In this document: one piece after another, positions 4,438 to 48,778 of the stretch
Position numbering within the stretch: the first letter of the stretch is position 1
Layout of the letters: each line of letters begins with the position of its first letter
Assembly (NCBI GenBank): GCA_964531215.1
Contig: CAZHFK010000001.1
Coordinates: 1 to 48,778 of the forward strand
Length of the DNA: 48,778 bases
DNA from: an uncultured Gammaproteobacteria bacterium
Lineage (GTDB): Bacteria > Patescibacteriota > Patescibacteriia > CAIXNZ01
Reading direction: 5' to 3'
Program-made: the position numbers and the translations under genes
Notes under the pieces: model-generated
Database searches by the model: none
Seen by the model: only the letters and a program-made list of their open reading frames with translations
Told to the model about the DNA's origin: nothing

Positions 4438-6807
4438 ATGAAAAAATACATTTTAAAATTTTCCGAACTGAGCATGAAAGATGTGCCAATGGTTGGCGGT
4501 AAAAACGCTTCTTTGGGTGAGATGTATAACAAATTAGTTAAAAAAGGTATTAATATACCGCATGGTTTTGCTGTGACTGCCGAAGGTTTCAAGGCTTTTT
4601 TGCAGTTTAATGAAATTGATCAAGAAATAAGCAAACTTTTAAAAAGTATTGATTATGATAAATTAGAAGATTTAAAAGATAAAGGCCGGCAAATTCGTCA
4701 ATTAGTTTTAAAGTCTGAGTTTCCTAAAGATTTGGAAAAAGTTATTATTGAGGCGTATAAAAATTTAAGTCAAGAATATGATAAAGATAATTTGGATGTG
4801 GCAATTCGTTCTTCAGCCACAGCCGAGGATTTGCCGATCGCTTCTTTTGCCGGCCAATTGGAATCTTTTTTAAATGTTAAGCGGCAACAGCCTCTTTTAG
4901 CCGGTATAAAAAAATGTTTTGCTTCTTTATATGGTAATCGGACAATTTCTTATGTGCACGATCAGGGTTTTAAATATGATAATATTTTTCTTTCTGTCGG
5001 TATTCAAAAAATGGTGCGCAGTGATAAGGCTTCAGCCGGAGTAAGTTTTACGGTTGATACTGAAACAGGTTTTAAAGATATTGTTTTAATTAATTCAGCT
5101 TATGGTTTAGGTGAAAATGTTGTTAAAGGCCGAATTAATCCTGATCAGTTTTATATTTTCAAACCGACTTTAGGCAAAGATTTTAAAGCTATTATTAGCA
5201 AAGAACTTGGCAGTAAAGAAAAAAAATTAGTTTATAAAAATAAAGGAAAGGAAACAACTGCCAATATAAAAGTTGAACTAAAAAAACAAAATAAATTTTC
5301 TTTAACTGATAAGGAAATTTTAAAATTAGCCAAATGGTCGGTTAAGATAGAGACATTATACGATAAACCAATGGATATTGAGTGGGCGAAGGATGGACTG
5401 GATAATAAACTTTATATTGTTCAAGCCCGCCCCGAAACTGTATCTCATAAAAAAGATACCAATATTTTGGAAGAATATATTTTACAGCAAAAGGGTAAAG
5501 TTTTATGCCAGGGCAATAGTATTGGTGAAAAAATCGGCCAGGGTAAAGTCAAGGTAATTAAAGATGTGAAAAATATTACTGATTTTAAAAAAGGGGATGT
5601 TTTGGTAACTACAATGACCGATCCTGATTGGGAGCCTGTCATGAAAAAAGCGGCAGCTATAGTGACTGATTTGGGCGGCCGAACTTCACATGCGGCTATT
5701 GTTTCACGGGAATTAGGTGTCCCGGCTGTTGTTGGCACTAAAGATGCCACGCAAGTTTTAAAAGATAAAAATAAAGTGACTGTTTCCTGTGCTGAAGGTG
5801 AAAAAGGTTATATTTATCAAGGTATTTTGGATTTTAAAGTTAAAAAAACAAATTTAAAAAAGCTCCCGGAAATAAAAACTAAAATAATGATGATTTTGGC
5901 AGAGCCTAATTTGGCTTTTAAACATTCTTTTTTACCCAGTCAGGGCGTTGGTTTGGCCAGAATAGAATTTATTATTGCCAATAATATTAAGGTTCATCCC
6001 TTGGCTCTGCTTAATTTTAAGAAGTTGGATGATAAAAAGATAAAAGATAAAATAAATAAATTAACTTTAGCTTTTGATAATAAAAAACAATATTATATTG
6101 ATAAACTGGCTTGGGGGATGGCTAAAATTGCCGCGGCTTTTTATCCTCAGGAAGTAATAGTCAGATTTTCTGATTTCAAAACCAATGAATACGGTAATTT
6201 AATCGGCGGTGAATCATTTGAACCCCAGGAAGCCAACCCAATGATTGGCTGGCGCGGTGCTTCTCGGTATTATGATGACAAATTTAAACCGGCTTTTGAA
6301 TTGGAATGTCAGGCAGTTAAAAAAGTCAGGCAGGAAATGGGTTTGAAAAATCTTAAAGTTATGGTCCCGTTTTGCCGGACAATTGAAGAAGGTAAAAAAG
6401 TTCTTGAAATTTTAAAAGCAAACGGGTTAAAATCAGGCCAGGATGATTTGCAGATTTATGTGATGATAGAAATTCCATCCAATGTGCTTTTGGCTGACGA
6501 GTTTGCTCAAATTTTTGACGGGTTTTCCATTGGTTCCAATGATTTAACCCAATTAACTTTAGGCTTGGATCGTGATTCCGAATTGATTTCAGATATAGCC
6601 GATGAGCGAAATGAGGCAGTTAAAAAATTAATCGCTCAGGTGATTAAAACAGCCAAGAAAAATAAAATAAAAATCGGGATTTGCGGTCAGGCGCCCAGTG
6701 ATTTCCCTAATTTTGCCAGATTTTTAATGAAACAGGGGATTGACAGTATTTCTTTAAACCCTGATACGGTTATTAAGACCAGACTTGACTTAGGTAAAAG
6801 TAAATGA
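4438..6807 (+). CDS. ppsA: Phosphoenolpyruvate synthase (pyruvate, water dikinase)
   Basis: 789 aa. N-terminal ATP-grasp region, phospho-His motif GGRTSHAAIVSRELGVPAVVG, and a C-terminal PEP-utilising TIM barrel (GSNDLTQ). Confidence 0.93.
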   Translation: MKKYILKFSELSMKDVPMVGGKNASLGEMYNKLVKKGINIPHGFAVTAEGFKAFLQFNEIDQEISKLLKSIDYDKLEDLKDKGRQIRQLVLKSEFPKDLEKVIIEAYKNLSQEYDKDNLDVAIRSSATAEDLPIASFAGQLESFLNVKRQQPLLAGIKKCFASLYGNRTISYVHDQGFKYDNIFLSVGIQKMVRSDKASAGVSFTVDTETGFKDIVLINSAYGLGENVVKGRINPDQFYIFKPTLGKDFKAIISKELGSKEKKLVYKNKGKETTANIKVELKKQNKFSLTDKEILKLAKWSVKIETLYDKPMDIEWAKDGLDNKLYIVQARPETVSHKKDTNILEEYILQQKGKVLCQGNSIGEKIGQGKVKVIKDVKNITDFKKGDVLVTTMTDPDWEPVMKKAAAIVTDLGGRTSHAAIVSRELGVPAVVGTKDATQVLKDKNKVTVSCAEGEKGYIYQGILDFKVKKTNLKKLPEIKTKIMMILAEPNLAFKHSFLPSQGVGLARIEFIIANNIKVHPLALLNFKKLDDKKIKDKINKLTLAFDNKKQYYIDKLAWGMAKIAAAFYPQEVIVRFSDFKTNEYGNLIGGESFEPQEANPMIGWRGASRYYDDKFKPAFELECQAVKKVRQEMGLKNLKVMVPFCRTIEEGKKVLEILKANGLKSGQDDLQIYVMIEIPSNVLLADEFAQIFDGFSIGSNDLTQLTLGLDRDSELISDIADERNEAVKKLIAQVIKTAKKNKIKIGICGQAPSDFPNFARFLMKQGIDSISLNPDTVIKTRLDLGKSK

Positions 6808-11148: not shown

Positions 11149-11222
11149 GGGGGCGTAGCTCAGTTGGTTAGAGCGCTTGCCTGTCACGCAAGAGGTCGCG
11201 AGTTCGAGTCTCGTCGTCCCCG
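11149..11222 (+). tRNA. tRNA-Asp (anticodon GTC)
   Basis: Manual cloverleaf. The 7-bp acceptor is GGGGGCG/CGTCCCC, the D arm is GCTC..GAGC, and the anticodon stem CTTGC/GCAAG carries loop CTGTCAC. The T arm has TTCGAGT and the discriminator is G. CC is encoded but not the full CCA. The ends are good to about +/-2 nt. Confidence 0.88.
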
Positions 11223-11298
11223 CCTCCGCTTTTTCTCGTTTTACTCGAAAAAGCTTCGGCGGGCCTTTATGGCCCGCTTTTGTGTTGTAAATAAAAAG

Positions 11299-14554: not shown

Positions 14555-14653
14555 TTCCAACATAGTCAACCCTTCTTCGGCTACGCTCAGAGTAGGCTAA
14601 ACCTCGCACAAACGCAAAATCAGGTTATAATGGCCTGTTTTTTGTTTTGACAA
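14552..14653 (+). repeat. ~100-bp repeat element, copy 2
   Basis: TAGTTCCAACATAGTCAACCCTTCTTCGGCTACGCTCAGAGTAGGCTAAACCTCGCACAAACGCAAAA...TTTTGTTTTGACAA. Confidence 0.8.
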
Positions 14654-14699
14654 TATTTTTTGAATTGTTATATTATAAATATAATAAATTATTTTATAT

Positions 14700-14876
14700 A
14701 TGTTAGAAGATAAAGATATAGAAAAATTAACACAAGTTTTTGCAACAAAAGAAGAAATTAAGTCAATGATTGAGCCACTAGCAACAAAAGAAGTTTTTTT
14801 AGAGTTACAAAACTCAGTAGATGATTATGCCAAGAAAGCCGATACTTAAAAAGTAGATATTGAGTTAACTACTTAG
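14700..14876 (+). pseudogene. Small coiled-coil protein paralog with an internal deletion creating TAA
   Basis: MLEDKDIEKLTQVFATKEE...DDYAKKADT* is followed in frame by KVDIELTT*. The middle segment present in 47104-47349 is absent. Confidence 0.65.
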
Positions 14877-16939: not shown

Positions 16940-17046
16940 GATAGTAAAATTTAATAATTAATTGATACTTCCTCGCTTCGTTTGTCAGTTCCTTCGCTTG
17001 AAGTGTTAAAGACATCCTGAGCCATCAACGAAGTTAAGGCAAAGTG

Positions 17047-17393
17047 TGGAGATGGCGGGAATTGAACCCGCGTCTTGAAAGTTTTTTAAAATACCATCGA
17101 CAAGCTTAAATTTGAAAAGTCTTAATAATAGTTGACTGATTTGGCTAAGACCAGACCAAATCAGCTTTGCCTGAAAAAATATGACACCCCAAACCTTTTA
17201 TCAGGCATCAAAGGTAGAGATGGCTGCTGTTTTTATTAAACTGCAGCAAAAGCAAAGTTCGGAGTAAAAGCACTCTTTACTTTGGCAAATAAGTTTTTTG
17301 CACTTATTGGATTGTATTTTGGATTAACGAGGCAAAATACAGCCTCGGCTTGCAGTATTTTAAAAGTTCTTTCAATCGACGCCTGTCATCCCC
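17047..17393 (-). ncRNA. ssrA: tmRNA (SsrA)
   Basis: The 5' end GGGGATGACAGGCGTCGA pairs with the 3' end GACGCGGGTTCAATTCCCGCCATCTCCA, which closely matches the E. coli ssrA 3' end. The acceptor has G3-U70. A PK1-like pseudoknot is present (GAGGC/GCCTC with GTATTTT/AAAATAC). The putative tag frame 17301-17236 ends in TAA TAA. Confidence 0.9.
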
Positions 17394-42543: not shown

Positions 42544-45500
42544 ATGAGAAAATTATTTACTTCAGTCGTAGTAGTGTTAACCATTACATGGGCTGTTGGT
42601 TTGGCTGCTTTTGTGCCGACTGCGCAAGCTGTTAGCTTGTCATCCGGCGATTTAATCAAAGGCTCTTTACCGGCAGTATATTACTACGGTGCTGATGCAA
42701 AAAGATATGTTTTCCCAGACGTGAAAACATACGAAACTTGGTATGGTAGTGATTTTTCTGCAGTAAAAACAATTACTGATACAGAATTAGCTACTATTCC
42801 TATCGGAGGCAATGTTACTTATCGCCCCGGTGAAAGTATGGTCAAAATCCAGTCAGATCCAAAAGTTTATGCTGTTTCACAAAACGGCACTTTGCACTGG
42901 GTTTCTACCGAATCAGTGGCTTCTTGCCTTTACGGTTCAGACTGGTCAACTAAGGTCAACGATGTCTCTGATGCTTTCTTTGTCAATTACACAATTGGCT
43001 CAGAAATCACAGACTGCGCTGATTATGATCCGGATGCGGCCAAAGCCGATTCATCAACCATTAATGTTGATAAAGGTTTAGCTGAAGACGCTGCCGGTGA
43101 TATTACTGCTTCTTTGGCAGCTGATAATCCGGCTGGCGCGACTTTGCCTTTAAATGCTACCAATGTTGAAGTTTTAAAATTCAACTTATCCGGCACAGGC
43201 ACTGTTAACAGTTTGACTTTTGTCAGTGAAGGTGTTGGTAACGCTGCCGATGTAGCTGGTGCTTATCTTTATGAAGGCGCTAAAAGATTGACTTCTGGTA
43301 AAAGCTTAAATTCTACTACCAAAGAAACAACTTTTAACACCAGCATGTCTTTATCCGGCACCAGAACTTTAAGCTTGGTTATTGATGTTGCTGCTCCTGG
43401 TACTGCTACTCCCGGTGATGAACACGCTTTCAAATTATTATCAATTAATGGCGAAGCTCTTGGCGGAGTCATGGGTAATACTTTTGATATTGGCGCTCAA
43501 GCAGTCAGTAATGTAGCAGTTGATCCAACAACTATCCCATCTGATCCGCAAGTCGGTGCCAAAAATGCTGAAATTGCTAATTTCAAAATTACCGGCGGTA
43601 TTAATGATTCAGTTATCAATAGCATTGCTTTGACTCAATTAGGCTCAATCAATTCTGAAGATTTGACTAATTTTGTCTTGGAAAATGCCGGTACTGAAGT
43701 GGCTACAGCTGATGCGATTTCAGACGGTGATAGAATTGTCTTAGTCTTTAATACGCCGTTTAGCTTATTATCAGGCGCTGTGAAAAATTTCACTTTATAC
43801 GCTGATGTGGCTGGCCGCCCCGGCAGAACAATCCAGACTTACATTGACGAAGATACTGATGTTAATGTCATTGACAGCTTGTATGGTTTTGGCGCTACTG
43901 TGACCAATAACTTTACTGCTGCTTCAAATATGAGTGTAACCACTCAAGGTGGTGAAATTACAGTATCTTTTAACGGTCCGATTACCGGTGATATTTCTAA
44001 AGGCGCCAGAGATGTGGTTTTATTTGAATTTGCTATGACAGCTGCTTCTCCGGTTGATGTTAGAAATACTTATGTTCAATTAGACTGTGTCAATGCTACT
44101 TGTGATTTGGGTGATGGTACCAATCCATACTTTTCTGATTTGAAATTAATTGATGCTGATAGCTCACAAGTCTTAGCTGGTCCGGTTTCTGTACCGGCTA
44201 CTAATGCTGGTGGAGCTGATCTTAGTGGTGTTTTAACCATGGTAGATGATTGGATGTTAGATGAAGGTACAAGAAATCTAGCTATTACTGCTGATTTATC
44301 TAATTCTGCTACCGCTGGTTTTGTTGGCGAACCATATCAGATTACTTTAGGTAATGCTACTCAAATCTTTACCGGTGCTGATATTAAATATCAAGGCTCC
44401 AATGATTATGTAGCTACCGGTGATATTGTGCCCAACACGCCAATTGTTGGTAATAATCAAACAGTCAGAGCATCTTCTTTAGAAGTTAATCTTTCCAATT
44501 ACATTTCTGACAATACTCATGTCAAAGGTGTAACTGATGCTGCTTCTGCCGCTTTTGTTTTAACTGCCGGTTCTGATTCTGATATTAAAGTCAGAAGATT
44601 CAGAGTTAATCCGCAAGCTGATGATGATCAAAATGGTGATTATCTTGATATGTTAGCTAATAATGATGTTGTTTCAGCTAAATTATGGCAGGTAACCGAT
44701 GCCGGCTGGTCAGAATTAGCCGGTCCAAAATCAATTCAAACTACTGTAGAACCGCCTGCTACGCCTAATGCCGGTGATGAATTAATTACTTTTGAGAATT
44801 TTGACATTACTATTCCGGCTGGTGATTCAGCAGTCTTGGTGGTCAGCTTTGATGCGACTACTGCTGCTTTAGGTAGTACTAATCCTGATAATATCGCTTT
44901 TACTATTCAGGACGCTACTTATATTGAAGCTTATGATGAAGATGATAATCAGGTAACTGCTACTACTGATAGCGGAACAGCTATTGATGTCGCCCCAATA
45001 AATGCTCCTGATGGCGGATTTGGGGAAACAGCATCTACTTTACAGACGGTTGGTAGTTTTGGCTTATCTTCCGATCAAGTTGCTACTGATTACCAGGCTA
45101 GATTAGTTCAAATGGGTTCTACCGGCCAAAAAGCTTTAAGAGTTTTGGGCGAAGCTGCTAATGAAGACTTTAAAGTAACTGATGCTCAAATTACAGTTGG
45201 CGGCGCAAATGCTAATGCAGTGGCTGTGTCAGTTTCTTACCCAACCGATAAAGATCAAACCACTTATGAAACCAAATCAAGTGTCTTGGTTGGCGGTGTG
45301 GCTTCTTTCACTAATATGAACTGGTATGTGCCGGCTGATGTTGATAGTTATTTATCAGCTATGGTTAATGTCCAGACTAATGCGCAAGGCGCTTTATCAG
45401 GCAATAGCCCATTCAATTTGACTTTAGAAAGTGAAAATGATGATTTGGATCCGTCAGTTAATGATTTCACCAAAGCCTTAGGTCTGTCTTCCGGCAGTTT

Positions 45501-46128
45501 TGCGACTACTAATACTGCCGCAGATGCCGATAGTACTGGTAATAATTTATTTGCCAGAAAAACTATCTTGACCTTTGACTTAAATGCTGCTTCACCGGAA
45601 AGAGTCAATGCTGTCCCGGGCTTGGATGATTATTTAATCTTTGATGTTTCTAATACTGAAGGAAACAAATCCGTAATTAATCATCTTACATTTAAACTAA
45701 CAGCTACTGATAATGTTCCTACGACTTGGGTGTCCGGTATAGAAAATACTCTTGAAATTTATGATATGGATGATTTGTCAACTAATTTAATTGATGGTGG
45801 TACAATAATTACCACTAATCCTAGTCCGGCCGATGCAGGTGCTACAGAAATCGTAGTTGAATTAGATCAACATAGTAGTGGTTCTAGTCCAATGGTTATT
45901 CCAGCCGGTGAAACCAAGACTTTCCAAGTCAAACTTGATACTACCGGTGCTTCTTCTGTACAGGATGATTCAGTCAGACTTGATATAATTTCAAACGATA
46001 CAGCCGGCGCTGCTGGTTGTACCGGAGGACTTAACTGTCTTGAATGGACTGATGGTTCTGCCTCTAACATTCAAAATGGTTACAAAGTAGAAAACTTACC
46101 GGTTAATGGTCTTGGTACATCATTCTAA
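42544..46128 (+). CDS. Large secreted surface (S-layer-like) protein, 1194 aa
   Basis: Signal peptide ending AQA, an N-terminal module shared with ORF 1968-3140, then many T/S/N/A/G-rich beta-type segments. A strong terminator follows. Confidence 0.8.
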   Translation: MRKLFTSVVVVLTITWAVGLAAFVPTAQAVSLSSGDLIKGSLPAVYYYGADAKRYVFPDVKTYETWYGSDFSAVKTITDTELATIPIGGNVTYRPGESMVKIQSDPKVYAVSQNGTLHWVSTESVASCLYGSDWSTKVNDVSDAFFVNYTIGSEITDCADYDPDAAKADSSTINVDKGLAEDAAGDITASLAADNPAGATLPLNATNVEVLKFNLSGTGTVNSLTFVSEGVGNAADVAGAYLYEGAKRLTSGKSLNSTTKETTFNTSMSLSGTRTLSLVIDVAAPGTATPGDEHAFKLLSINGEALGGVMGNTFDIGAQAVSNVAVDPTTIPSDPQVGAKNAEIANFKITGGINDSVINSIALTQLGSINSEDLTNFVLENAGTEVATADAISDGDRIVLVFNTPFSLLSGAVKNFTLYADVAGRPGRTIQTYIDEDTDVNVIDSLYGFGATVTNNFTAASNMSVTTQGGEITVSFNGPITGDISKGARDVVLFEFAMTAASPVDVRNTYVQLDCVNATCDLGDGTNPYFSDLKLIDADSSQVLAGPVSVPATNAGGADLSGVLTMVDDWMLDEGTRNLAITADLSNSATAGFVGEPYQITLGNATQIFTGADIKYQGSNDYVATGDIVPNTPIVGNNQTVRASSLEVNLSNYISDNTHVKGVTDAASAAFVLTAGSDSDIKVRRFRVNPQADDDQNGDYLDMLANNDVVSAKLWQVTDAGWSELAGPKSIQTTVEPPATPNAGDELITFENFDITIPAGDSAVLVVSFDATTAALGSTNPDNIAFTIQDATYIEAYDEDDNQVTATTDSGTAIDVAPINAPDGGFGETASTLQTVGSFGLSSDQVATDYQARLVQMGSTGQKALRVLGEAANEDFKVTDAQITVGGANANAVAVSVSYPTDKDQTTYETKSSVLVGGVASFTNMNWYVPADVDSYLSAMVNVQTNAQGALSGNSPFNLTLESENDDLDPSVNDFTKALGLSSGSFATTNTAADADSTGNNLFARKTILTFDLNAASPERVNAVPGLDDYLIFDVSNTEGNKSVINHLTFKLTATDNVPTTWVSGIENTLEIYDMDDLSTNLIDGGTIITTNPSPADAGATEIVVELDQHSSGSSPMVIPAGETKTFQVKLDTTGASSVQDDSVRLDIISNDTAGAAGCTGGLNCLEWTDGSASNIQNGYKVENLPVNGLGTSF

Positions 46129-46172
46129 ATGAATTTTGTACGCAAGGTTTTCTGACTTTGCGCCATTCTCAT

Positions 46173-46207
46173 AACCCGGCCCCTTTTAAGGGGTCGGGTT
46201 TGTTTTT
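46173..46207 (+). terminator. Rho-independent terminator
   Basis: Hairpin AACCCGGCCCCTT-TT-AAGGGGTCGGGTT followed by TGTTTTT. Confidence 0.8.
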
Positions 46208-47026
46208 GGGGAGAAATTATAGATTTGTAGTGGCAGACTTTTCTTTTTTTTGTCGCAGGACTTGGTTCTGCCTCCAGACCCCAAGGCGGGGAAATAAGCA
46301 ATTAAAAGCAACAAAAATAATAAAAAATAGCAGACATAACTGCGTATTTACATTCACCGGGTAGGTAAAGATTATTTAGGCTGGAGCAGAGGCTCCGGCC
46401 TACCCAGGATTTAAACCAAAATAGCCAAAAATTAAAGTTAATTTTTGTTGGATAAATAAGGCTCTTCTTTTTTTGTAACCCAAAAAAGAAGCAAAAAAAG
46501 TTCTGGGGTGGCAGATTCGCTTTAACATTGTGTCATGAAAAGCAGTGCTGTTTATGGGCTCAGCTGCCACCCCAGACCCCAAGGTGGGGAATAAGCAATT
46601 AAAAGCGACAAACATAATAAGAAATAGCAGGCATAACTGCGTATTTATATTCACCGGGTAGGTAAAGATTATTTAGGCTGGAGCAGTGGCTCCGGTATCC
46701 CCGGGATTTAAAAGCATTAATTTAAAACCAAAATAGCCAAAAATTAAAGTTAATTTTTGTTGGATAAATAAGGCTCTTCTTTTTTTGTAACCCAAAAAAG
46801 AAGCAAAAAAAGTTCTGGGGTGGCAGATTCGCTTTAACATTGTGTCATGAAAAGCAGTGCTGTTTATGGGCTCAGCTGCCACCCCAGACCCCAAGGAGGG
46901 GAATAAGCAATTAAAAGCGACAAAAATAATAAGAAATAGCAGGCATAACTGCGTATTTATATTCACCGGGTAGGTAAAGCTTTCTTTGGCAGGCTCAGGA
47001 CAGGTTTATGCTTTTGGCTTTTTTTG
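46186..47026. repeat. Modular mosaic/tandem repeats (units ~297 and ~312 bp) with conserved hairpins
   Basis: The core (AGACCCCAAGGNGGGGAATAAGCAATTAAAAGCGACAAA..ATAGCAGGCATAACTGCGTATTTATATTCACCGG) is at 46276-46360, 46574-46658 and 46886-46970. A 12-bp perfect stem CTGGGGTGGCAG/CTGCCACCCCAG is at 46503-46514/46564-46575 and again at 46813-46824/46874-46885. Confidence 0.85.
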
Positions 47027-47050
47027 AATTGAGAAATTAAGAAACTTTTT

Positions 47051-47078
47051 TTGACAATTTTTAATAAATTGCTATAAT
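47051..47078 (+). promoter_or_regulatory. Sigma-70-type promoter
   Basis: TTGACA, 16 nt, TATAAT. Confidence 0.55.
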
Positions 47079-47103
47079 ATTAATATAAGTCATAAATATT
47101 TTT

Positions 47104-47349
47104 ATGCTAGATGATAAAGATATAGAAAAATTAGTGAAAGTATTTGCAACCAGAGAAGAAGTCGCAACAAAAAAAGATTTGGGAGATTTAAATCAGAAAT
47201 TTGATGTATTGCAAAATTCGGTTGATACTTATGCGAAAAAAGCCGATACCTATTTTCAGGAATTAGCAGCTTTAAGATCAAAGGTCAACCGTTTAGAAGA
47301 TTGGATAACCAAAATAGCCAAAAAAGTAGATATTGAGTTAACTGCTTGA
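47104..47349 (+). CDS. Small (81 aa) coiled-coil protein, the intact member of a 3-copy family
   Basis: It has a promoter and a terminator, and a heptad-like charged sequence. Decayed paralogs lie at 12889-13149 and 14700-14876. Confidence 0.65.
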   Translation: MLDDKDIEKLVKVFATREEVATKKDLGDLNQKFDVLQNSVDTYAKKADTYFQELAALRSKVNRLEDWITKIAKKVDIELTA

Positions 47350-47377
47350 ATTTTAATTTTTTATAAGTTAGTTATAT

Positions 47378-47405
47378 AAAGAAGCCAATTAGGCTTCTTT
47401 TTTGT
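47378..47405 (+). terminator. Rho-independent terminator
   Basis: Hairpin AAAGAAGCC-AATT-AGGCTTCTTT followed by TTT. Confidence 0.75.
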
Positions 47406-47427
47406 AAAGTTAGAATATTATTTGTTT

Positions 47428-47700
47428 AAGGGGTCGGGTTTGTTTTTGGGGAAATCATAGCTTTGTAGTGGCAGACTTTTCTTTTTTGTCGCAGGGCTTG
47501 GTTCTGCCTCCGGATCCCAAGGCGGGGAATAAGCAATTAAAAGCGACAAAAATAATAAGAAATAGCAGGCATAACTGCGTATTTATATTCACCGGTTAGC
47601 CAAAGCTTTCTTTGGCAGGCTCAGGACAGATTTATGCTTTTGGCTTGATTATTCAGGCTGGACCAGGGGCTCCGGTATCCCCGGGATTTAAAAGGATTAA
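47428..47700. repeat. Fourth copy of the mosaic repeat (A-type hairpin + core + X + partial T1 modules)
   Basis: 47428-47597 matches 46190-46366, 47604-47646 matches 46979-47026, and 47650-47700 matches 46668-46722. Confidence 0.85.
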
Positions 47701-47786
47701 TTTATTGATTTTAGCCGGTTGAATTTATCTTGATTTTAAGTTAAAATTAATAAAGAAAGACTTAATTATTAAATTATTGTATTTTT

Positions 47787-48392
47787 ATGAAAAAGTTGTC
47801 AAAACAGCAAAATTTGATTTATTTAATTGGGGGAGTAGTTATTATTCTTATTTTAGGTATTTTGGTTTATTATCAGCCAAGCGAGCCGACTGAGCCCGAT
47901 TATGAAACAGTGGAAGGCCTGCAGTATATGAAATTAACCGCCAAAGATTTACCGGAAGATAAATTCGGATTATATGAGCAAGCCATAGAAACTTTAAGAG
48001 AAAAACCGTTTGATCGGACTTCTTTATTGAATTTGGGTTATATTTATCGTAATTTGGGCGCTTATGAACAGGCGATTGCTGCTTTTTCGCAACATTTGAA
48101 TGTTGATCCTTATGATTCGGAAATTATTTTGGGTTTAGCCAGGGTCAGGACAGATCAAAAGCAGTTTAAAGAAGCCGAAAAGCATTATTATGAGATTTTG
48201 GAAGTTTTTCCTTTGTACACTTTGGCTTATAAAGAATTATTAGCTTTGTATCAGGATAAATCATTGGAACCAAATCAAGCTTTTATTGAACAAGTTAATC
48301 GTTCCTTGGAATTTGATCAGGAAAACAAAAATCAGTACCAACAACGTTTAAATGAATATTTGAGTCAATACAATCAAATCCCCAAAGATTAA
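47787..48392 (+). CDS. Membrane-anchored TPR-repeat protein
   Basis: N-terminal TM helix, then TPR-like repeats (LLNLGYIYRNLGAYEQAIAAFSQHLNVDP...). Confidence 0.7.
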   Translation: MKKLSKQQNLIYLIGGVVIILILGILVYYQPSEPTEPDYETVEGLQYMKLTAKDLPEDKFGLYEQAIETLREKPFDRTSLLNLGYIYRNLGAYEQAIAAFSQHLNVDPYDSEIILGLARVRTDQKQFKEAEKHYYEILEVFPLYTLAYKELLALYQDKSLEPNQAFIEQVNRSLEFDQENKNQYQQRLNEYLSQYNQIPKD

Positions 48393-48409
48393 AAAATGTT
48401 TAAATTTAA

Positions 48410-48718
48410 TCAGCCGGGCGATATTATCCGGCGCGGAGCAGGGGTTCCACGCTACCCATGGGAGGGCAGGGCCTAAACGAGGCTAAAAATAGCGTATTTG
48501 GCAGGCCGGGGTTTTATGACTTTAATATTTACACCAATAAAAAGTTTGAGGAAAAATTAAAATATATTCATGATAATCCCATTAAACACGGCTTAATCAA
48601 TGATATTTCGCAGTATAAATACTGCTCTTGGCGTAATTATGTCAGCTATAGGCGGACACGACGCTTTTGGCGGAAACAAGGTGATCATAGTGTTTTTAAA
48701 ATAGATATTTTATCTTAA
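48410..48718 (+). pseudogene. C-terminal fragment of an IS200/RayT-like (REP-associated Y1) transposase
   Basis: GFYDFNIY....F..KL.YIHDNPIKHGLI.....YKYCSW resembles the C-terminal third of that family. The N-terminal HUH/Tyr region is absent, and the frame is open only from 48410. Confidence 0.45.
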
Positions 48719-48726
48719 TTAAATTA

Positions 48727-48778
48727 TGAAAAAATTAATTTATTTTATTGTTATAATCTTAGTTTTGCTTTTATTACC
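48727..48778 (+). CDS. Start of a membrane/secreted protein, truncated by the window end
   Basis: ATG followed by KKLIYFIVIILVLLLL.., open to the window edge. Confidence 0.3.

What the first reader, a model, noticed from the sequence alone, without database searches (positions are those of the whole stretch)
46186..47700. Modular, hairpin-rich repeat mosaic downstream of the giant surface-protein gene (candidate ncRNA family or MITE-like elements)
An ~85-nt core occurs four times, at 46276-46360, 46574-46658, 46886-46970 and 47512-47595. It is combined with interchangeable modules. Upstream is either an A-type hairpin (46229-46275, 47468-47511) or a B-type 12-bp perfect stem CTGGGGTGGCAG/CTGCCACCCCAG with a 49-nt loop. 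Downstream is either tail T1 (~140 nt with three hairpins) or tail X (GCTTTCTTTGGCAGGCTCAGGACAG.TTTATGCTTTTGGC). Two units form a direct tandem of about 297 and 312 bp. The A-type copy at 46190 begins inside the 3' arm of the surface-gene terminator, and that half-terminator is duplicated at 47428. In the core, the small hairpin CCCC-AAGGN-GGGG keeps its stem while the loop base N is C, T, A and C in the four copies. A 1-nt indel (GGGGAAATAAGC versus GGGGAATAAGC) breaks the minus-strand ORFs between copies. Both features argue for an RNA- or DNA-level element rather than a protein. I cannot assign it to any known ncRNA or mobile-element class.
Basis: seen in the sequence. Interest (0 to 1): 0.6.

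Follow-up and report, generated by a model that had tools for sequence, protein, structure and literature searches.

The report
Locally duplicated triplex-pseudoknot extragenic repeats
The repeat mosaic is a cluster of two intact and two decayed copies, made by local duplication, of a roughly 130-base element on the opposite strand that folds into a long hairpin plus a knot with a three-stranded helix; the element occurs in several copies per genome across the tiny CPR bacteria, is in no RNA catalogue, and its function is unknown.

Summary
The repeats are real and sit at the stated coordinates. The "interchangeable modules" are by-products of local segmental duplication, not functional units.

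The conserved unit lies on the minus strand (46461-46592 and 46773-46904). It has three parts:
- a 3-4 bp pseudoknot;
- a 5-7-layer U.A-U/C+.G-C triple helix, formed by the U-tract after the hairpin and a downstream A/U hairpin.

All three parts covary in about 100 copies. A covariance model finds the element in 13 of 14 genomes of the family and in 71 of 401 sampled genomes of the class, at 1-8 copies each. The pseudoknot-triplex module also occurs in other CPR classes. No Rfam family matches.

The A-type units have lost the pseudoknot-triplex domain. One copy sits at the same locus in another genus, a same-genus genome has none, and this genome amplified it.

The element is not coding. It is not tied to TnpB and does not depend on a RayT/IS200 transposase.

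The closest published kind is the bacterial intrastrand-triplex repeats (BoxC/PIT/TM_ECO).

The parts
42544..46128 (+). Gene for the 1194-aa surface protein. It converges on the elements.
   Evidence: ORF list. Homologous genes lie at the syntenic loci in G001 and G004.
46173..46200 (+). Intrinsic terminator of the surface-protein gene. Its 3' half plus the U-tract (46185-46212) was copied to 47425-47452.
   Evidence: Terminator scan. Repeat D7 is 100% identical. The same terminator is present in G001.
46201..46360 (-). Decayed copy A. It keeps the 5' leader ('core' 46276-46360), the small hairpin 46279-46291 and a remodelled stem (GGCAGA/TCTGCC, 46229-46275). It has no pseudoknot-triplex domain.
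   Evidence: Repeats D1, D4 and D5. Models R1 and R2 do not detect it.
46461..46592 (-). Intact element B1, with features given in + coordinates:
- A/U hairpin hp3: 46464-46491
- third-strand U-tract: 46493-46499
- pseudoknot AAC: 46500-46502
- hairpin P1: 46503-46575
- lineage-specific small hairpin: 46577-46589
   Evidence: R1 hit at 117 bits, E = 2.7e-25, full length. R2 hit at 46463-46502. Fold.
46659..46772 (.). Its segment 46667-46724 duplicates native DNA at 47647-47704.
   Evidence: Repeat D3. G001 keeps the ancestral GATTTAAAATGATTAATTTA upstream of its TPR gene. Relatives do not conserve this spacer: the BLAST hits cover only query positions 275-437.
46773..46904 (-). Intact element B2, the tandem twin of B1 (+312 bp):
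- hp3: 46776-46803
- U-tract: 46805-46811
- P1: 46815-46887
- small hairpin: 46889-46901
   Evidence: R1 hit at 117.3 bits, E = 2.3e-25. D2 tandem, 277 nt at 96%.
46971..47020 (.). Tail X, a genome-specific flank. A second copy lies at 47596-47646.
   Evidence: Repeats D1 and D6. No match in relatives.
47051..47399 (+). Small 81-aa coiled-coil gene (47104-47349). It has a consensus promoter (TTGACA-16-TATAAT, 47051-47078) and its own terminator hairpin (about 47377-47399). It is not part of the element but sits inside the mosaic.
   Evidence: Homologues in G001, G005, G006, G010 and at window 14642-14756.
47425..47704 (-). Decayed copy A'. It consists of the duplicated half-terminator (47425-47452), the A-type stem (47468-47511), the 'core' (47512-47595), tail X and the native segment upstream of the TPR gene.
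   Evidence: Repeats D1 and D3-D7. Absent from the orthologous G001 locus. R1 and R2 do not detect it.

Best explanation
**SHOWN**

The mosaic is a locally amplified and partly decayed cluster of one element family. The unit is encoded on the minus strand and is about 130 nt long. Its parts, 5' to 3', are:
- a conserved G-tract;
- a long hairpin P1, clamped by GGGG/CCCC plus two further pairs, with a non-Watson-Crick internal loop (tandem G.A/A.G) and a variable tip;
- a trinucleotide (usually AAC) that pairs with the loop of a downstream A/U hairpin, making an H-type pseudoknot;
- a U-tract of 5-7 nt that lies parallel to that hairpin's A-run and forms U.A-U and C+.G-C triples. In published terms this is a class IV pyrimidine-motif intrastrand triplex.

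Helices, pseudoknot and triplex all covary across about 100 copies, so selection maintains the fold on a single strand.

The family is multicopy and patchy, and so far found almost only in CPR/Patescibacteria genomes.

One copy was already at this locus in the family's ancestor: genus g4 has a single copy in the same place and orientation. The same-genus genome G001 has none. This genome made two intact tandem copies and two decayed ones by segmental duplications that dragged native flanks along.

**INFERRED**

The folded form is most likely RNA. Only the pyrimidine-motif strand can form such a triplex as RNA.

P1 followed two bases later by the U-tract looks like an intrinsic terminator. In transcripts that run on, the downstream hairpin would lock that U-tract and the AAC into a compact, triplex-capped structure.

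I think its most likely role resembles that of REP elements: a transcription stop and/or an exonuclease-resistant RNA end placed in gene-free gaps.

The repeated, structure-prone DNA also promotes the local duplication and loss seen here.
For: **The family is real.**
- Model R1 hits 13 of 14 genomes of the family, all full length, at 1-7 copies each. It hits 71 of 401 genomes of the class, in 59 of 300 genera.
- An exact-pattern scan of 185,579 species gives 97 loci. Nearly all are CPR: Buchanan-, Falkow-, Magasanik-, Peri-, Peregrini-, Gracili- and Dojkabacteria.
- The module-only model R2 hits 21 of 401 genomes sampled across the phylum, with up to 12 copies per genome.

**The helices covary.**
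- 95.7% of cells are paired.
- 18 of 23 pairs show changes on both sides.
- The covariation score is 0.537, against 0.153 for shuffles and at most 0.087 for slid partners.

**The pseudoknot covaries.**
- 22 of 31 distinct spacer/loop combinations pair perfectly. Shuffles average 4.5, with a maximum of 13.
- At least 12 pairing types occur, including AAC:GUU, CAC:GUG, CAG:CUG, GAC:GUC, AUC:GAU, GCGC:GCGC, CCC:GGG, AAG:CUU and GGC:GCC.

**The triplex covaries.**
- The three runs keep the same length: 5/5/5, 6/6/6 or 7/6/7.
- In 11 of 12 distinct haplotypes with a C in the third strand, that C lies in register and parallel to a G of the purine run. An example is UCUUU / CUUUCU / AGAAAG.
- That class excludes both an alternative antiparallel pairing and a direct-repeat protein-site model.

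**Orthologues differ by compensatory changes.** Window versus G004: UCU:AGA becomes UUU:AAA, GGCAG:CUGCC becomes GGCAA:UUGCC, and the hp3-closing G-C becomes A-U.

**Local history.**
- G001 has the surface-protein gene, its terminator, then 75 nt, then the small gene, with no element.
- G004 has the surface-protein gene, its terminator, then 17 nt, then one element.
- Native flanks were duplicated within the window (D3, D7).

**Not coding.**
- Copy lengths mod 3 split 37/31/28.
- Only 35 of 96 copies have any open sense frame.
- The 84- and 97-aa ORFs match no Pfam family.

**Strand.**
- Purine-purine mismatches outnumber pyrimidine-pyrimidine ones 37 to 13 on the proposed strand.
- PMC4666352 states that pyrimidine-type intrastrand triplexes occur in RNA whereas purine-motif ones cannot.

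**Orientation.** Between tandem genes the element is antisense 40 times and sense 11 times. This is expected if the sense form stops transcription.
Against:
- **No conserved promoter.** No -10 box sits at a fixed distance upstream. No good sigma-70 match lies upstream of B1 or B2 on the minus strand. Head-to-head pairs only 21 nt apart leave no room for a promoter for each copy.
- **Wobble pairs are rare and symmetric.** There are 11 G.U against 8 A.C among 1129 Watson-Crick pairs. That is unusual for an RNA-only constraint and fits a DNA hairpin, or use of both strands.
- **The orientation bias is not universal.** In other classes it is weak, 12 against 8. It could also reflect replication direction.
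- **Many upstream genes have their own terminator** before the element, so the element is not their terminator.
- **The published relatives showed no such activity.** For E. coli BoxC/PIT, PMC4666352 reports no terminator or promoter activity and no stable triplex in vivo.
- **Alignment bias.** The covariation counts come from alignments fitted to my own model, which favours the model's helices. This does not apply to the pseudoknot or the triplex, which the model does not encode.
Confidence: 0.6

Rival explanations
1. The fold acts on single-stranded DNA. The element would be a REP/BIME- or PIT-like genomic repeat whose hairpin and intrastrand triplex form transiently during replication or repair. 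It would spread or rearrange at the DNA level, perhaps through an HUH/Y1 (RayT/IS200-type) enzyme, with no RNA role.
For: - G.U pairs are nearly absent and there is no G.U versus A.C asymmetry.
- Copy number is patchy and multicopy.
- Some hits lie at contig ends.
- Copies within one genome share long flanks.
- Tandem arrays, solo modules and inverted pairs occur.
- A same-genus genome lacks the element, and this locus is rearranged.
- A RayT-like remnant lies 0.7 kb away at 48410-48718.
- Y1_Tnp occurs in 46 of 71 element-bearing genomes against 147 of 330 others.
- Published intrastrand-triplex repeats are linked to local genome instability (PMC4666352).
Against: - 25 of 71 element-bearing genomes have no Y1_Tnp, including genomes with 8 copies (G309, G263, G151).
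- No terminal inverted repeats or target-site duplication appear at the G001/window boundaries.
- Orthologous copies are kept across genera, with compensatory changes.
- The exact pattern finds no copy in viral contigs.
- Conserved purine-purine internal-loop pairs and a pseudoknot are more typical of RNA.
Confidence: 0.22
2. Each intact copy is an independent small-RNA gene with its own promoter. Its product would be a stable, trans-acting or protein-binding RNA, and the triplex would cap its 3' domain.
For: - Copies usually lie between the terminators of neighbouring genes, often 10-40 nt before a bidirectional terminator.
- In family f1, a -10-like TAATATTAT plus (T)GTCGC lies about 25-35 nt upstream of the G-tract.
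- Orthologous retention, a conserved scaffold and a variable tip.
Against: - No class-wide promoter signal.
- No good promoter in the window.
- Head-to-head pairs 21 nt apart, and solo modules.
- No conserved seed-like single-stranded region.
- Patchy presence, even within a genus.
Confidence: 0.12
3. The repeats encode small secreted or membrane peptides on the minus strand (the 84- and 97-aa ORFs at 46400-46654 and 46673-46966).
For: Open frames exist in B1 and B2, with a hydrophobic N-terminus.
Against: - No Pfam match.
- A 1-nt indel breaks the frames in the A copies.
- Family-wide, copy lengths mod 3 split 37/31/28, and 61 of 96 copies have no open sense frame.
- Substitutions are compensatory for helices, not synonymous.
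Confidence: 0.01

Closest known systems
BoxC / PIT (potential intrastrand triplex) / TM_ECO repeats of E. coli and other bacteria (Hoyne et al. 2000; Holder et al. 2015, PMC4666352)
   Same: - Short intergenic multicopy repeats in which three consecutive runs on one strand can form an intrastrand triplex. The order Hoogsteen run, pyrimidine run, purine run is 'class IV', and its complement is 'class II'.
- Loops are less conserved than runs.
- Some copies form inverted pairs.
- No link to flanking gene function or to known mobile elements.
- Loci are unusually rearranged between close relatives. Here, compare.
   Different: - TM_ECO is G/C-rich (CCCTCNCCC / GGGNGAGGG). It is studied as a purine-motif DNA triplex and is proteobacterial and cyanobacterial.
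- The present module is A/U-rich.
- It carries an additional covarying 3-4-bp pseudoknot and a preceding long GC-clamped hairpin.
- It is found in CPR bacteria.
- Its triple-layer covariation (C+.G-C replacing U.A-U in register) shows selection for the fold.
- The paper treated A/T-rich motifs as mostly chance.
- I saw no sequence similarity, and homology was not tested.
H-type pseudoknots with a major-groove U.A-U triplex (telomerase RNA pseudoknot; SAM-II/SAM-V and preQ1-II riboswitches). Recalled from my own knowledge.
   Same: The topology is S1a, U-rich loop 1, S2a, S1b, short loop 3, S2b, with loop 1 forming U.A-U triples in the major groove of S2.
   Different: - No Rfam match to any of these families.
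- No downstream regulated gene and no reverse-transcriptase partner.
- S1 is only 3-4 bp.
- The module follows a terminator-like hairpin.
- It is multicopy.
ENE plus A-rich-tract triple helices (MALAT1, MEN-beta, PAN RNA). Recalled from my own knowledge, with titles seen.
   Same: Two U-rich strands clamp one A-rich tract into a U.A-U triple helix with an occasional C+.G-C. The known role is to protect an RNA 3' end from decay.
   Different: - Those are eukaryotic or viral.
- There, the U-rich strands are the two sides of an internal loop in a stem, and the A-tract is the RNA's 3' end.
- Here the arrangement is a compact pseudoknot, and the 3' end is unknown.
REP / BIME elements of enterobacteria and their RayT transposases
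   Same: Extragenic, structured and multicopy. Copies occur singly, in tandem or in inverted pairs, often in the 3' regions of genes. The roles ascribed to REPs, termination and mRNA-end protection, are the roles I infer here.
   Different: - REPs are 20-40-nt simple palindromes with a 5' GTAG-type tetranucleotide, present in hundreds of copies, with RayT genes flanked by REPs.
- Here the unit is about 130 nt with a pseudoknot and triplex, at 1-12 copies per genome.
- Y1 transposases are absent from 35% of the genomes that carry the element.

Membership tests
Any Rfam 15 family | Covariance-model match at or near the family's gathering score | tested here: not met
   E-value-mode scans of window 45800-48778, of 7 canonical copies from relatives and of 13 copies from other CPR classes. 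Nothing overlaps the element; the only hits are weak chance matches and one tRNA elsewhere.
Intrastrand triplex repeats (PIT/BoxC/TM class, PMC4666352) | Three consecutive homopurine/homopyrimidine runs on one strand, with the third run in the correct polarity for Hoogsteen pairing | tested here: met
   The order is U-run, U-run, A-run (class IV). Run lengths are equal. In 11 of 12 informative haplotypes the third-strand C lies opposite a G, parallel and in register.
Intrastrand triplex repeats (PIT/BoxC/TM class, PMC4666352) | TM_ECO consensus CCCTCNCCC-N3-6-GGGNGAGGG-N3-GGGNGAGGG | tested here: not met
   The module is A/U-rich, for example AAC-U5-G-GUUCU5G-GUUA-CA5GAAC. Compared by eye with the consensus quoted.
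Intrastrand triplex repeats (PIT/BoxC/TM class, PMC4666352) | Intergenic and multicopy, with no functional link to neighbouring genes and with locus instability between relatives | tested here: met
   Neighbours are diverse housekeeping genes. The locus is empty in G001, holds a single copy in G004, and is amplified here.
REP/BIME with RayT | A 20-40-nt imperfect palindrome with a conserved 5' tetranucleotide, in tens to hundreds of copies | tested here: not met
   The unit is 118-193 nt, at 1-12 copies per genome.
REP/BIME with RayT | Co-occurrence with, and flanking of, a RayT (Y1_Tnp) gene | tested here: inconclusive
   PF01797 is present in 46 of 71 element-positive and 147 of 330 element-negative genomes. 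A remnant lies 0.7 kb away in the window, but G001 keeps the remnant without any element.
MITE | Terminal inverted repeats and a target-site duplication, with an empty site in relatives | tested here: not met
   G001 has an 'empty' locus, but with unrelated filler sequence and no TSD or TIR at the boundaries. Repeat units differ in extent between lineages.
IS200/IS605 omega-RNA (reRNA) or PATE | Position at or after the 3' end of a co-oriented tnpB gene (or between IS ends next to tnpA) | tested here: not met
   None of the co-oriented upstream proteins or the convergent downstream proteins is TnpB-like. They are RadA, DnaB, DnaN, tRNA synthetases, glycosyltransferases and the like.
Intrinsic (Rho-independent) terminator | A GC-rich stem followed within 0-2 nt by a U-tract | tested here: inconclusive
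   P1 has a 12-13-bp GC-rich base, then AC, then U5-7. The scan tool does not call it because the loop exceeds 8 nt. Activity cannot be tested here. The orientation bias of 40:11 is consistent with it.
ENE-type 3'-end triple helix | The A-rich tract in the triplex is the 3' end of the RNA and protects it | not testable with these tools
Integron attC array | Same-strand array of imperfect palindromes with R''/R' core sites separating promoterless cassettes, next to intI | tested here: not met
   Only one ORF lies in the cluster, and it has its own promoter and terminator. Elsewhere copies are dispersed singly. No GTTRRRY/RYYYAAC pair is conserved.
Protein-coding small gene | A conserved open frame, indels in multiples of three, and a synonymous-substitution bias | tested here: not met
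   Substitutions are compensatory for base pairs.

The most novel reading that the evidence does not exclude
The ~40-nt pseudoknot-triplex is a portable bacterial counterpart of the ENE/MALAT1 triple helix. It would be an RNA module that follows a terminator-like hairpin, captures that hairpin's U-tract in a U.A-U/C+.G-C triple helix, and so makes a nuclease-resistant RNA end or a roadblock to helicases and RNA polymerase. Different CPR lineages have attached it to different 5' hairpins, so it would define a whole superfamily of CPR RNAs.
Probability: 0.3. Interest if true: 0.8.

Novelty: new variant of a known kind. Interest (0 to 1): 0.62.

Why it matters
CPR/Patescibacteria have tiny genomes with very little non-coding DNA. 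Even so, many of them keep several copies of a 130-nt element whose hairpin, pseudoknot and triple helix are all preserved by compensatory change, including the textbook U.A-U to C+.G-C swap.

Natural triple helices supported by covariation are rare in bacteria. Outside a few riboswitches they are essentially undescribed.

The published intrastrand-triplex repeats (BoxC/PIT/TM_ECO) remain without a function, and their A/T-rich relatives were dismissed as chance. This family gives a tractable, strongly constrained example for asking what such repeats do: an RNA 3'-end cap or terminator, or a DNA structure that drives local rearrangement. The window itself shows the associated instability, with amplification here and loss in a sister genome.

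For annotation, the practical message is that the 'modules' seen in the window are duplication debris around two intact copies.

Tried and rejected
- **Rfam.** Three E-value-mode scans gave nothing.
- **tRNA/tmRNA.** ARAGORN finds none in the region.
- **Genome-wide MITE in this genome.** Rejected: only the local copies plus one at C39.
- **Coding minus-strand ORFs.** Rejected.
- **TnpB omega-RNA or any conserved partner gene.** Rejected.
- **RayT/IS200 dependence.** Only a weak enrichment, and not required.
- **Integron attC.** Rejected on architecture.
- **Phage carriage.** The exact pattern gives 0 hits in viral contigs.
- **Conserved promoter at a fixed distance.** Not found.
- **Strand from G.U versus A.C counts.** Uninformative, 11 against 8.
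- **The three U/U/A runs as two direct plus one inverted protein-binding site.** Rejected, because variants are mirror-symmetric (UCUUU versus CUUUCU), not direct repeats.
- **The first U-run as an alternative Watson-Crick partner of the A-run (a switch).** Not supported by the UCUUU/AGAAAG class.
- **The CCCC-loop-GGGG hairpin as a conserved feature.** It occurs only in some genera.
- **Literature.** Searches for a described CPR RNA of this kind found none. One preprint could not be opened.
Full report
**1. Observation**

The region was read directly and scanned for repeats.
- A four-copy family has copies starting at 46275, 46572, 46884 and 47510.
- A 277-nt direct tandem (46410-46686 and 46722-46998) is 96% identical.
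- The 28-nt half-terminator is duplicated perfectly (46185-46212 = 47425-47452).
- The surface-protein gene ends at 46128, and its terminator is at 46173-46200.
- BLAST of the 85-nt 'core' against the whole assembly (1.03 Mb, 71 contigs, 96% complete) finds only the four local copies.
- No Rfam family and no tRNA match the region.

**2. The conserved unit is on the other strand**

A BLAST of one B unit against 60 relatives hit several loci in other genera. The hits covered only window 46774-46936: the A/T hairpin at the end of 'T1', the B-type stem and the first part of the 'core'. Read on the minus strand, these hits align into one architecture:
- GGGG-UYN-GGGG...CCCC-NRA (hairpin P1);
- AAC;
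- a U-run, then G;
- a hairpin with a U-run, the loop G-GUUA-C and an A-run.

I built covariance model R1 from 12 copies.
- In the window's genome it finds B1 (46461-46592), B2 (46773-46904) and one more copy at C39:4278-4399. It does not find the A-type units.
- It finds full-length copies in 13 of 14 genomes of the family, at 1-7 each.
- It finds copies in 71 of 401 sampled genomes of the class, in 59 of 300 genera, at 1-8 each.
- An exact-pattern scan of one genome per species for 185,579 species returned 97 loci. Nearly all are in CPR lineages: Buchanan-, Falkow-, Magasanik-, Peri-, Peregrini-, Gracili- and Dojkabacteria. A few MAGs carry doubtful labels.
- No locus was found in viral contigs.

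**3. Structure**

On a 100-hit alignment, 95.7% of cells pair and 18 of 23 pairs show double changes. The covariation score is 0.537, against 0.153 for shuffles and at most 0.087 for slid partners. The alignment is fitted to the model, which favours the modelled helices.

Two features that the model does not encode also covary.

*Pseudoknot.* The three nucleotides before the first U-run pair with the loop of the downstream hairpin.
- At least 12 pairing types occur, including AAC:GUU, CAC:GUG, CAG:CUG, GAC:GUC, AUC:GAU, GCGC:GCGC, CCC:GGG, AAG:CUU, GGC:GCC, GCAC:GUGC and GCGG:CCGC.
- 22 of 31 distinct combinations are perfect. Shuffles average 4.5, with a maximum of 13.

*Triple helix.* The first U-run has the same length as the hairpin's U- and A-runs.
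- When the first U-run contains a C, that C lies opposite a G of the A-run, in parallel polarity and in exact register. This holds in 11 of 12 distinct haplotypes.
- Examples are UCUUU / CUUUCU / AGAAAG, U5C / CU5 / A5G and CUUU / CUUUC / GAAAG.
- This is the isomorphic U.A-U to C+.G-C replacement of a pyrimidine-motif triple helix.
- The mirror symmetry of the two pyrimidine runs excludes direct-repeat protein sites. It also excludes an alternative Watson-Crick partner.

The topology is an H-type pseudoknot whose loop 1 lies in the major groove of stem 2.

P1 also carries a conserved non-Watson-Crick internal loop, 5'-UGAGC/5'-GCGAA, with the correlated variant UAAGC/GCGCA. Purine-purine mismatches (37) outnumber pyrimidine-pyrimidine ones (13) on this strand.

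**4. Not coding, and no partner gene**
- Copy lengths are spread evenly over the three residue classes mod 3 (37/31/28).
- 61 of 96 copies have no open sense frame.
- The 84- and 97-aa ORFs of B1 and B2 match no Pfam family.
- Flanking genes are diverse housekeeping genes: tRNA synthetases, RpoC, RadA, DnaB, DnaN, glycosyltransferases and others. None is TnpB.
- PF01797 (Y1_Tnp) is present in 46 of 71 element-bearing genomes and 147 of 330 others. It is absent from genomes with 8 copies.

**5. History of this locus**
- In the same-genus genome G001 the order is surface-protein gene, terminator, 75 nt of unrelated sequence, small gene, TPR gene, RayT-like remnant. It has no element at either insertion block.
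- In genus g4 (G004) the order is surface-protein gene, terminator, 17 nt, one element in the same antisense orientation, TPR gene, RayT-like remnant.
- The element is therefore old at this locus. G001 lost it, and the window's genome amplified it.
- The duplicated pieces include native DNA. The terminator's 3' half appears twice (D7). The stretch just upstream of the TPR gene (47647-47704) reappears inside 'T1' at 46370-46427 and 46667-46724 (D3). G001 retains the ancestral sequence.
The A units keep the 5' leader and a remodelled GGCAGA/TCTGCC stem but lack the pseudoknot-triplex domain.
- Between the window and G004 orthologues there are at least three compensatory double substitutions.

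**6. The wider family**

I built a model of the 38-nt pseudoknot-triplex module alone (R2).
- In the window's genome it finds only the same three copies, so the module is not a generic terminator accessory.
- It finds the module in 21 of 401 genomes sampled across the phylum, with up to 12 copies per genome.
- In other classes the module follows quite different 5' hairpins, for example a ...CGGCAG type.
- Solo modules and a four-module tandem array occur in one genome.
- Inverted pairs occur too: head-to-head pairs 21 and 44 nt apart, and a tail-to-tail pair 37 nt apart.
- In one genus the repeated unit extends to at least 420 nt.

**7. Context and strand**

In the window's class the gene 3' of the element converges on it in about 80% of cases. 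Between tandem genes the element is antisense 40 times and sense 11 times. In other classes the ratio is 12 to 8.

Many copies lie after the upstream gene's own terminator, and 10-40 nt before a bidirectional terminator.

No -10 box sits at a fixed distance upstream. The window has no good minus-strand promoter near B1 or B2.

G.U pairs are rare and no commoner than A.C, 11 against 8 among 1129 Watson-Crick pairs.

So the data show that a single strand folds, but they do not say whether that strand is RNA or DNA. Three points favour RNA:
- The pyrimidine-motif triplex can form in RNA, whereas its purine-motif complement cannot (PMC4666352).
- The purine-purine internal loop is typical of RNA.
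- P1 plus U-tract resembles a terminator.

Three points favour a DNA-level repeat: the wobble statistics, the inverted pairs and the patchy multicopy distribution.

**8. Comparison with what is known**

After I had derived the fold, this scan's own notes showed that other agents had described triplex-pseudoknot intergenic repeats in other genomes. One note pointed to BoxC/PIT/TM_ECO.

I read Holder et al. 2015. They report:
- Intrastrand triplex motifs are abundant intergenic repeats in bacteria.
- TM_ECO is G/C-rich and intergenic, forms inverted pairs, and is not linked to gene function or to mobile elements.
- It showed no promoter or terminator activity and no stable triplex in vivo.
- It is associated with elevated local rearrangement between strains.

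The present element shares the run order (class IV, with a class II complement), the genomic behaviour and the locus instability. It differs in four ways:
- It is A/U-rich.
- It carries a covarying pseudoknot and a preceding hairpin.
- It occurs in CPR genomes.
- Its triple layers carry direct covariation evidence.

I therefore rate it a new variant of a known kind, not a member of TM_ECO.

**9. Verdict**
- The identity, the fold and the duplication history are well supported.
- The molecular role (an RNA terminator or end-cap, or a structure-forming DNA repeat) is inferred and remains open.

Noticed in passing
window 48410-48718: C-terminal remnant of a RayT/IS200-like (Y1) transposase. The 86-aa ORF itself gets no Pfam hit at E <= 0.01. 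Its DNA (48423-48641) is multicopy in this genome (C67, C52) and across the family, at 72-93% identity. PF01797 finds 2 matches in the window's own genome.
   Followed up: partly
window 47051-47399 (also 14642-14756): An 81-aa coiled-coil gene with a perfect TTGACA-16-TATAAT promoter and its own terminator. It belongs to a small paralogous family: there is a second partial copy at 14642-14756, and copies in G005, G006 and G010. In G001 the orthologue is shortened by a deletion equivalent to window 47223-47351.
   Followed up: partly
L049, L058, L059, L067, L056, L050 (genera g7/g3): In these genomes the element sits inside a longer repeat of at least 420 nt. Upstream is a GCCGGCGG hairpin. Downstream is a conserved block containing TATTATAAT followed by CCCAAGAGCTTCGCTCTAAACGCACACGCC and a terminator-like hairpin. 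This may be a second small transcription unit.
   Followed up: no
L266 (G536:C5) 6086-6394 and 5209-5246, minus strand: A genome of another CPR class has two full elements plus two solo pseudoknot-triplex modules within about 310 nt, all in the same direction as the flanking genes. The last module ends 13 nt before the ATG of a TlyA-like methyltransferase gene.
   Followed up: partly
L121 (G263:C3) 267-530; L116 1311-1672; L071 1501-1790: Inverted pairs of elements, reminiscent of BIME or TM_ECO palindromic pairs. Two are head-to-head, with G-tracts 21 and 44 nt apart. One is tail-to-tail, 37 nt apart.
   Followed up: partly
many copies, e.g. L049, L058, L074, L084 just 3' of hp3: A small GC hairpin with a GNNG-type loop (for example CGCC-GAA-GGCG, GCC-GGAG-GC) follows the A/U hairpin in many lineages. 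The window's copies lack it.
   Followed up: no
record titles: Several roughly 1-Mb MAGs that carry the element are labelled 'uncultured Gammaproteobacteria', 'Elusimicrobium', 'Planctomycetia' and the like. The labels look like automated mis-assignments of CPR genomes, or mis-binned contigs.
   Followed up: no
window 17046-17393 and 11149-11224: A tmRNA gene (minus strand, tag AKNLFAKVKSAFTPNFAFAAV) and a tRNA-Asp gene. Both are ordinary.
   Followed up: no
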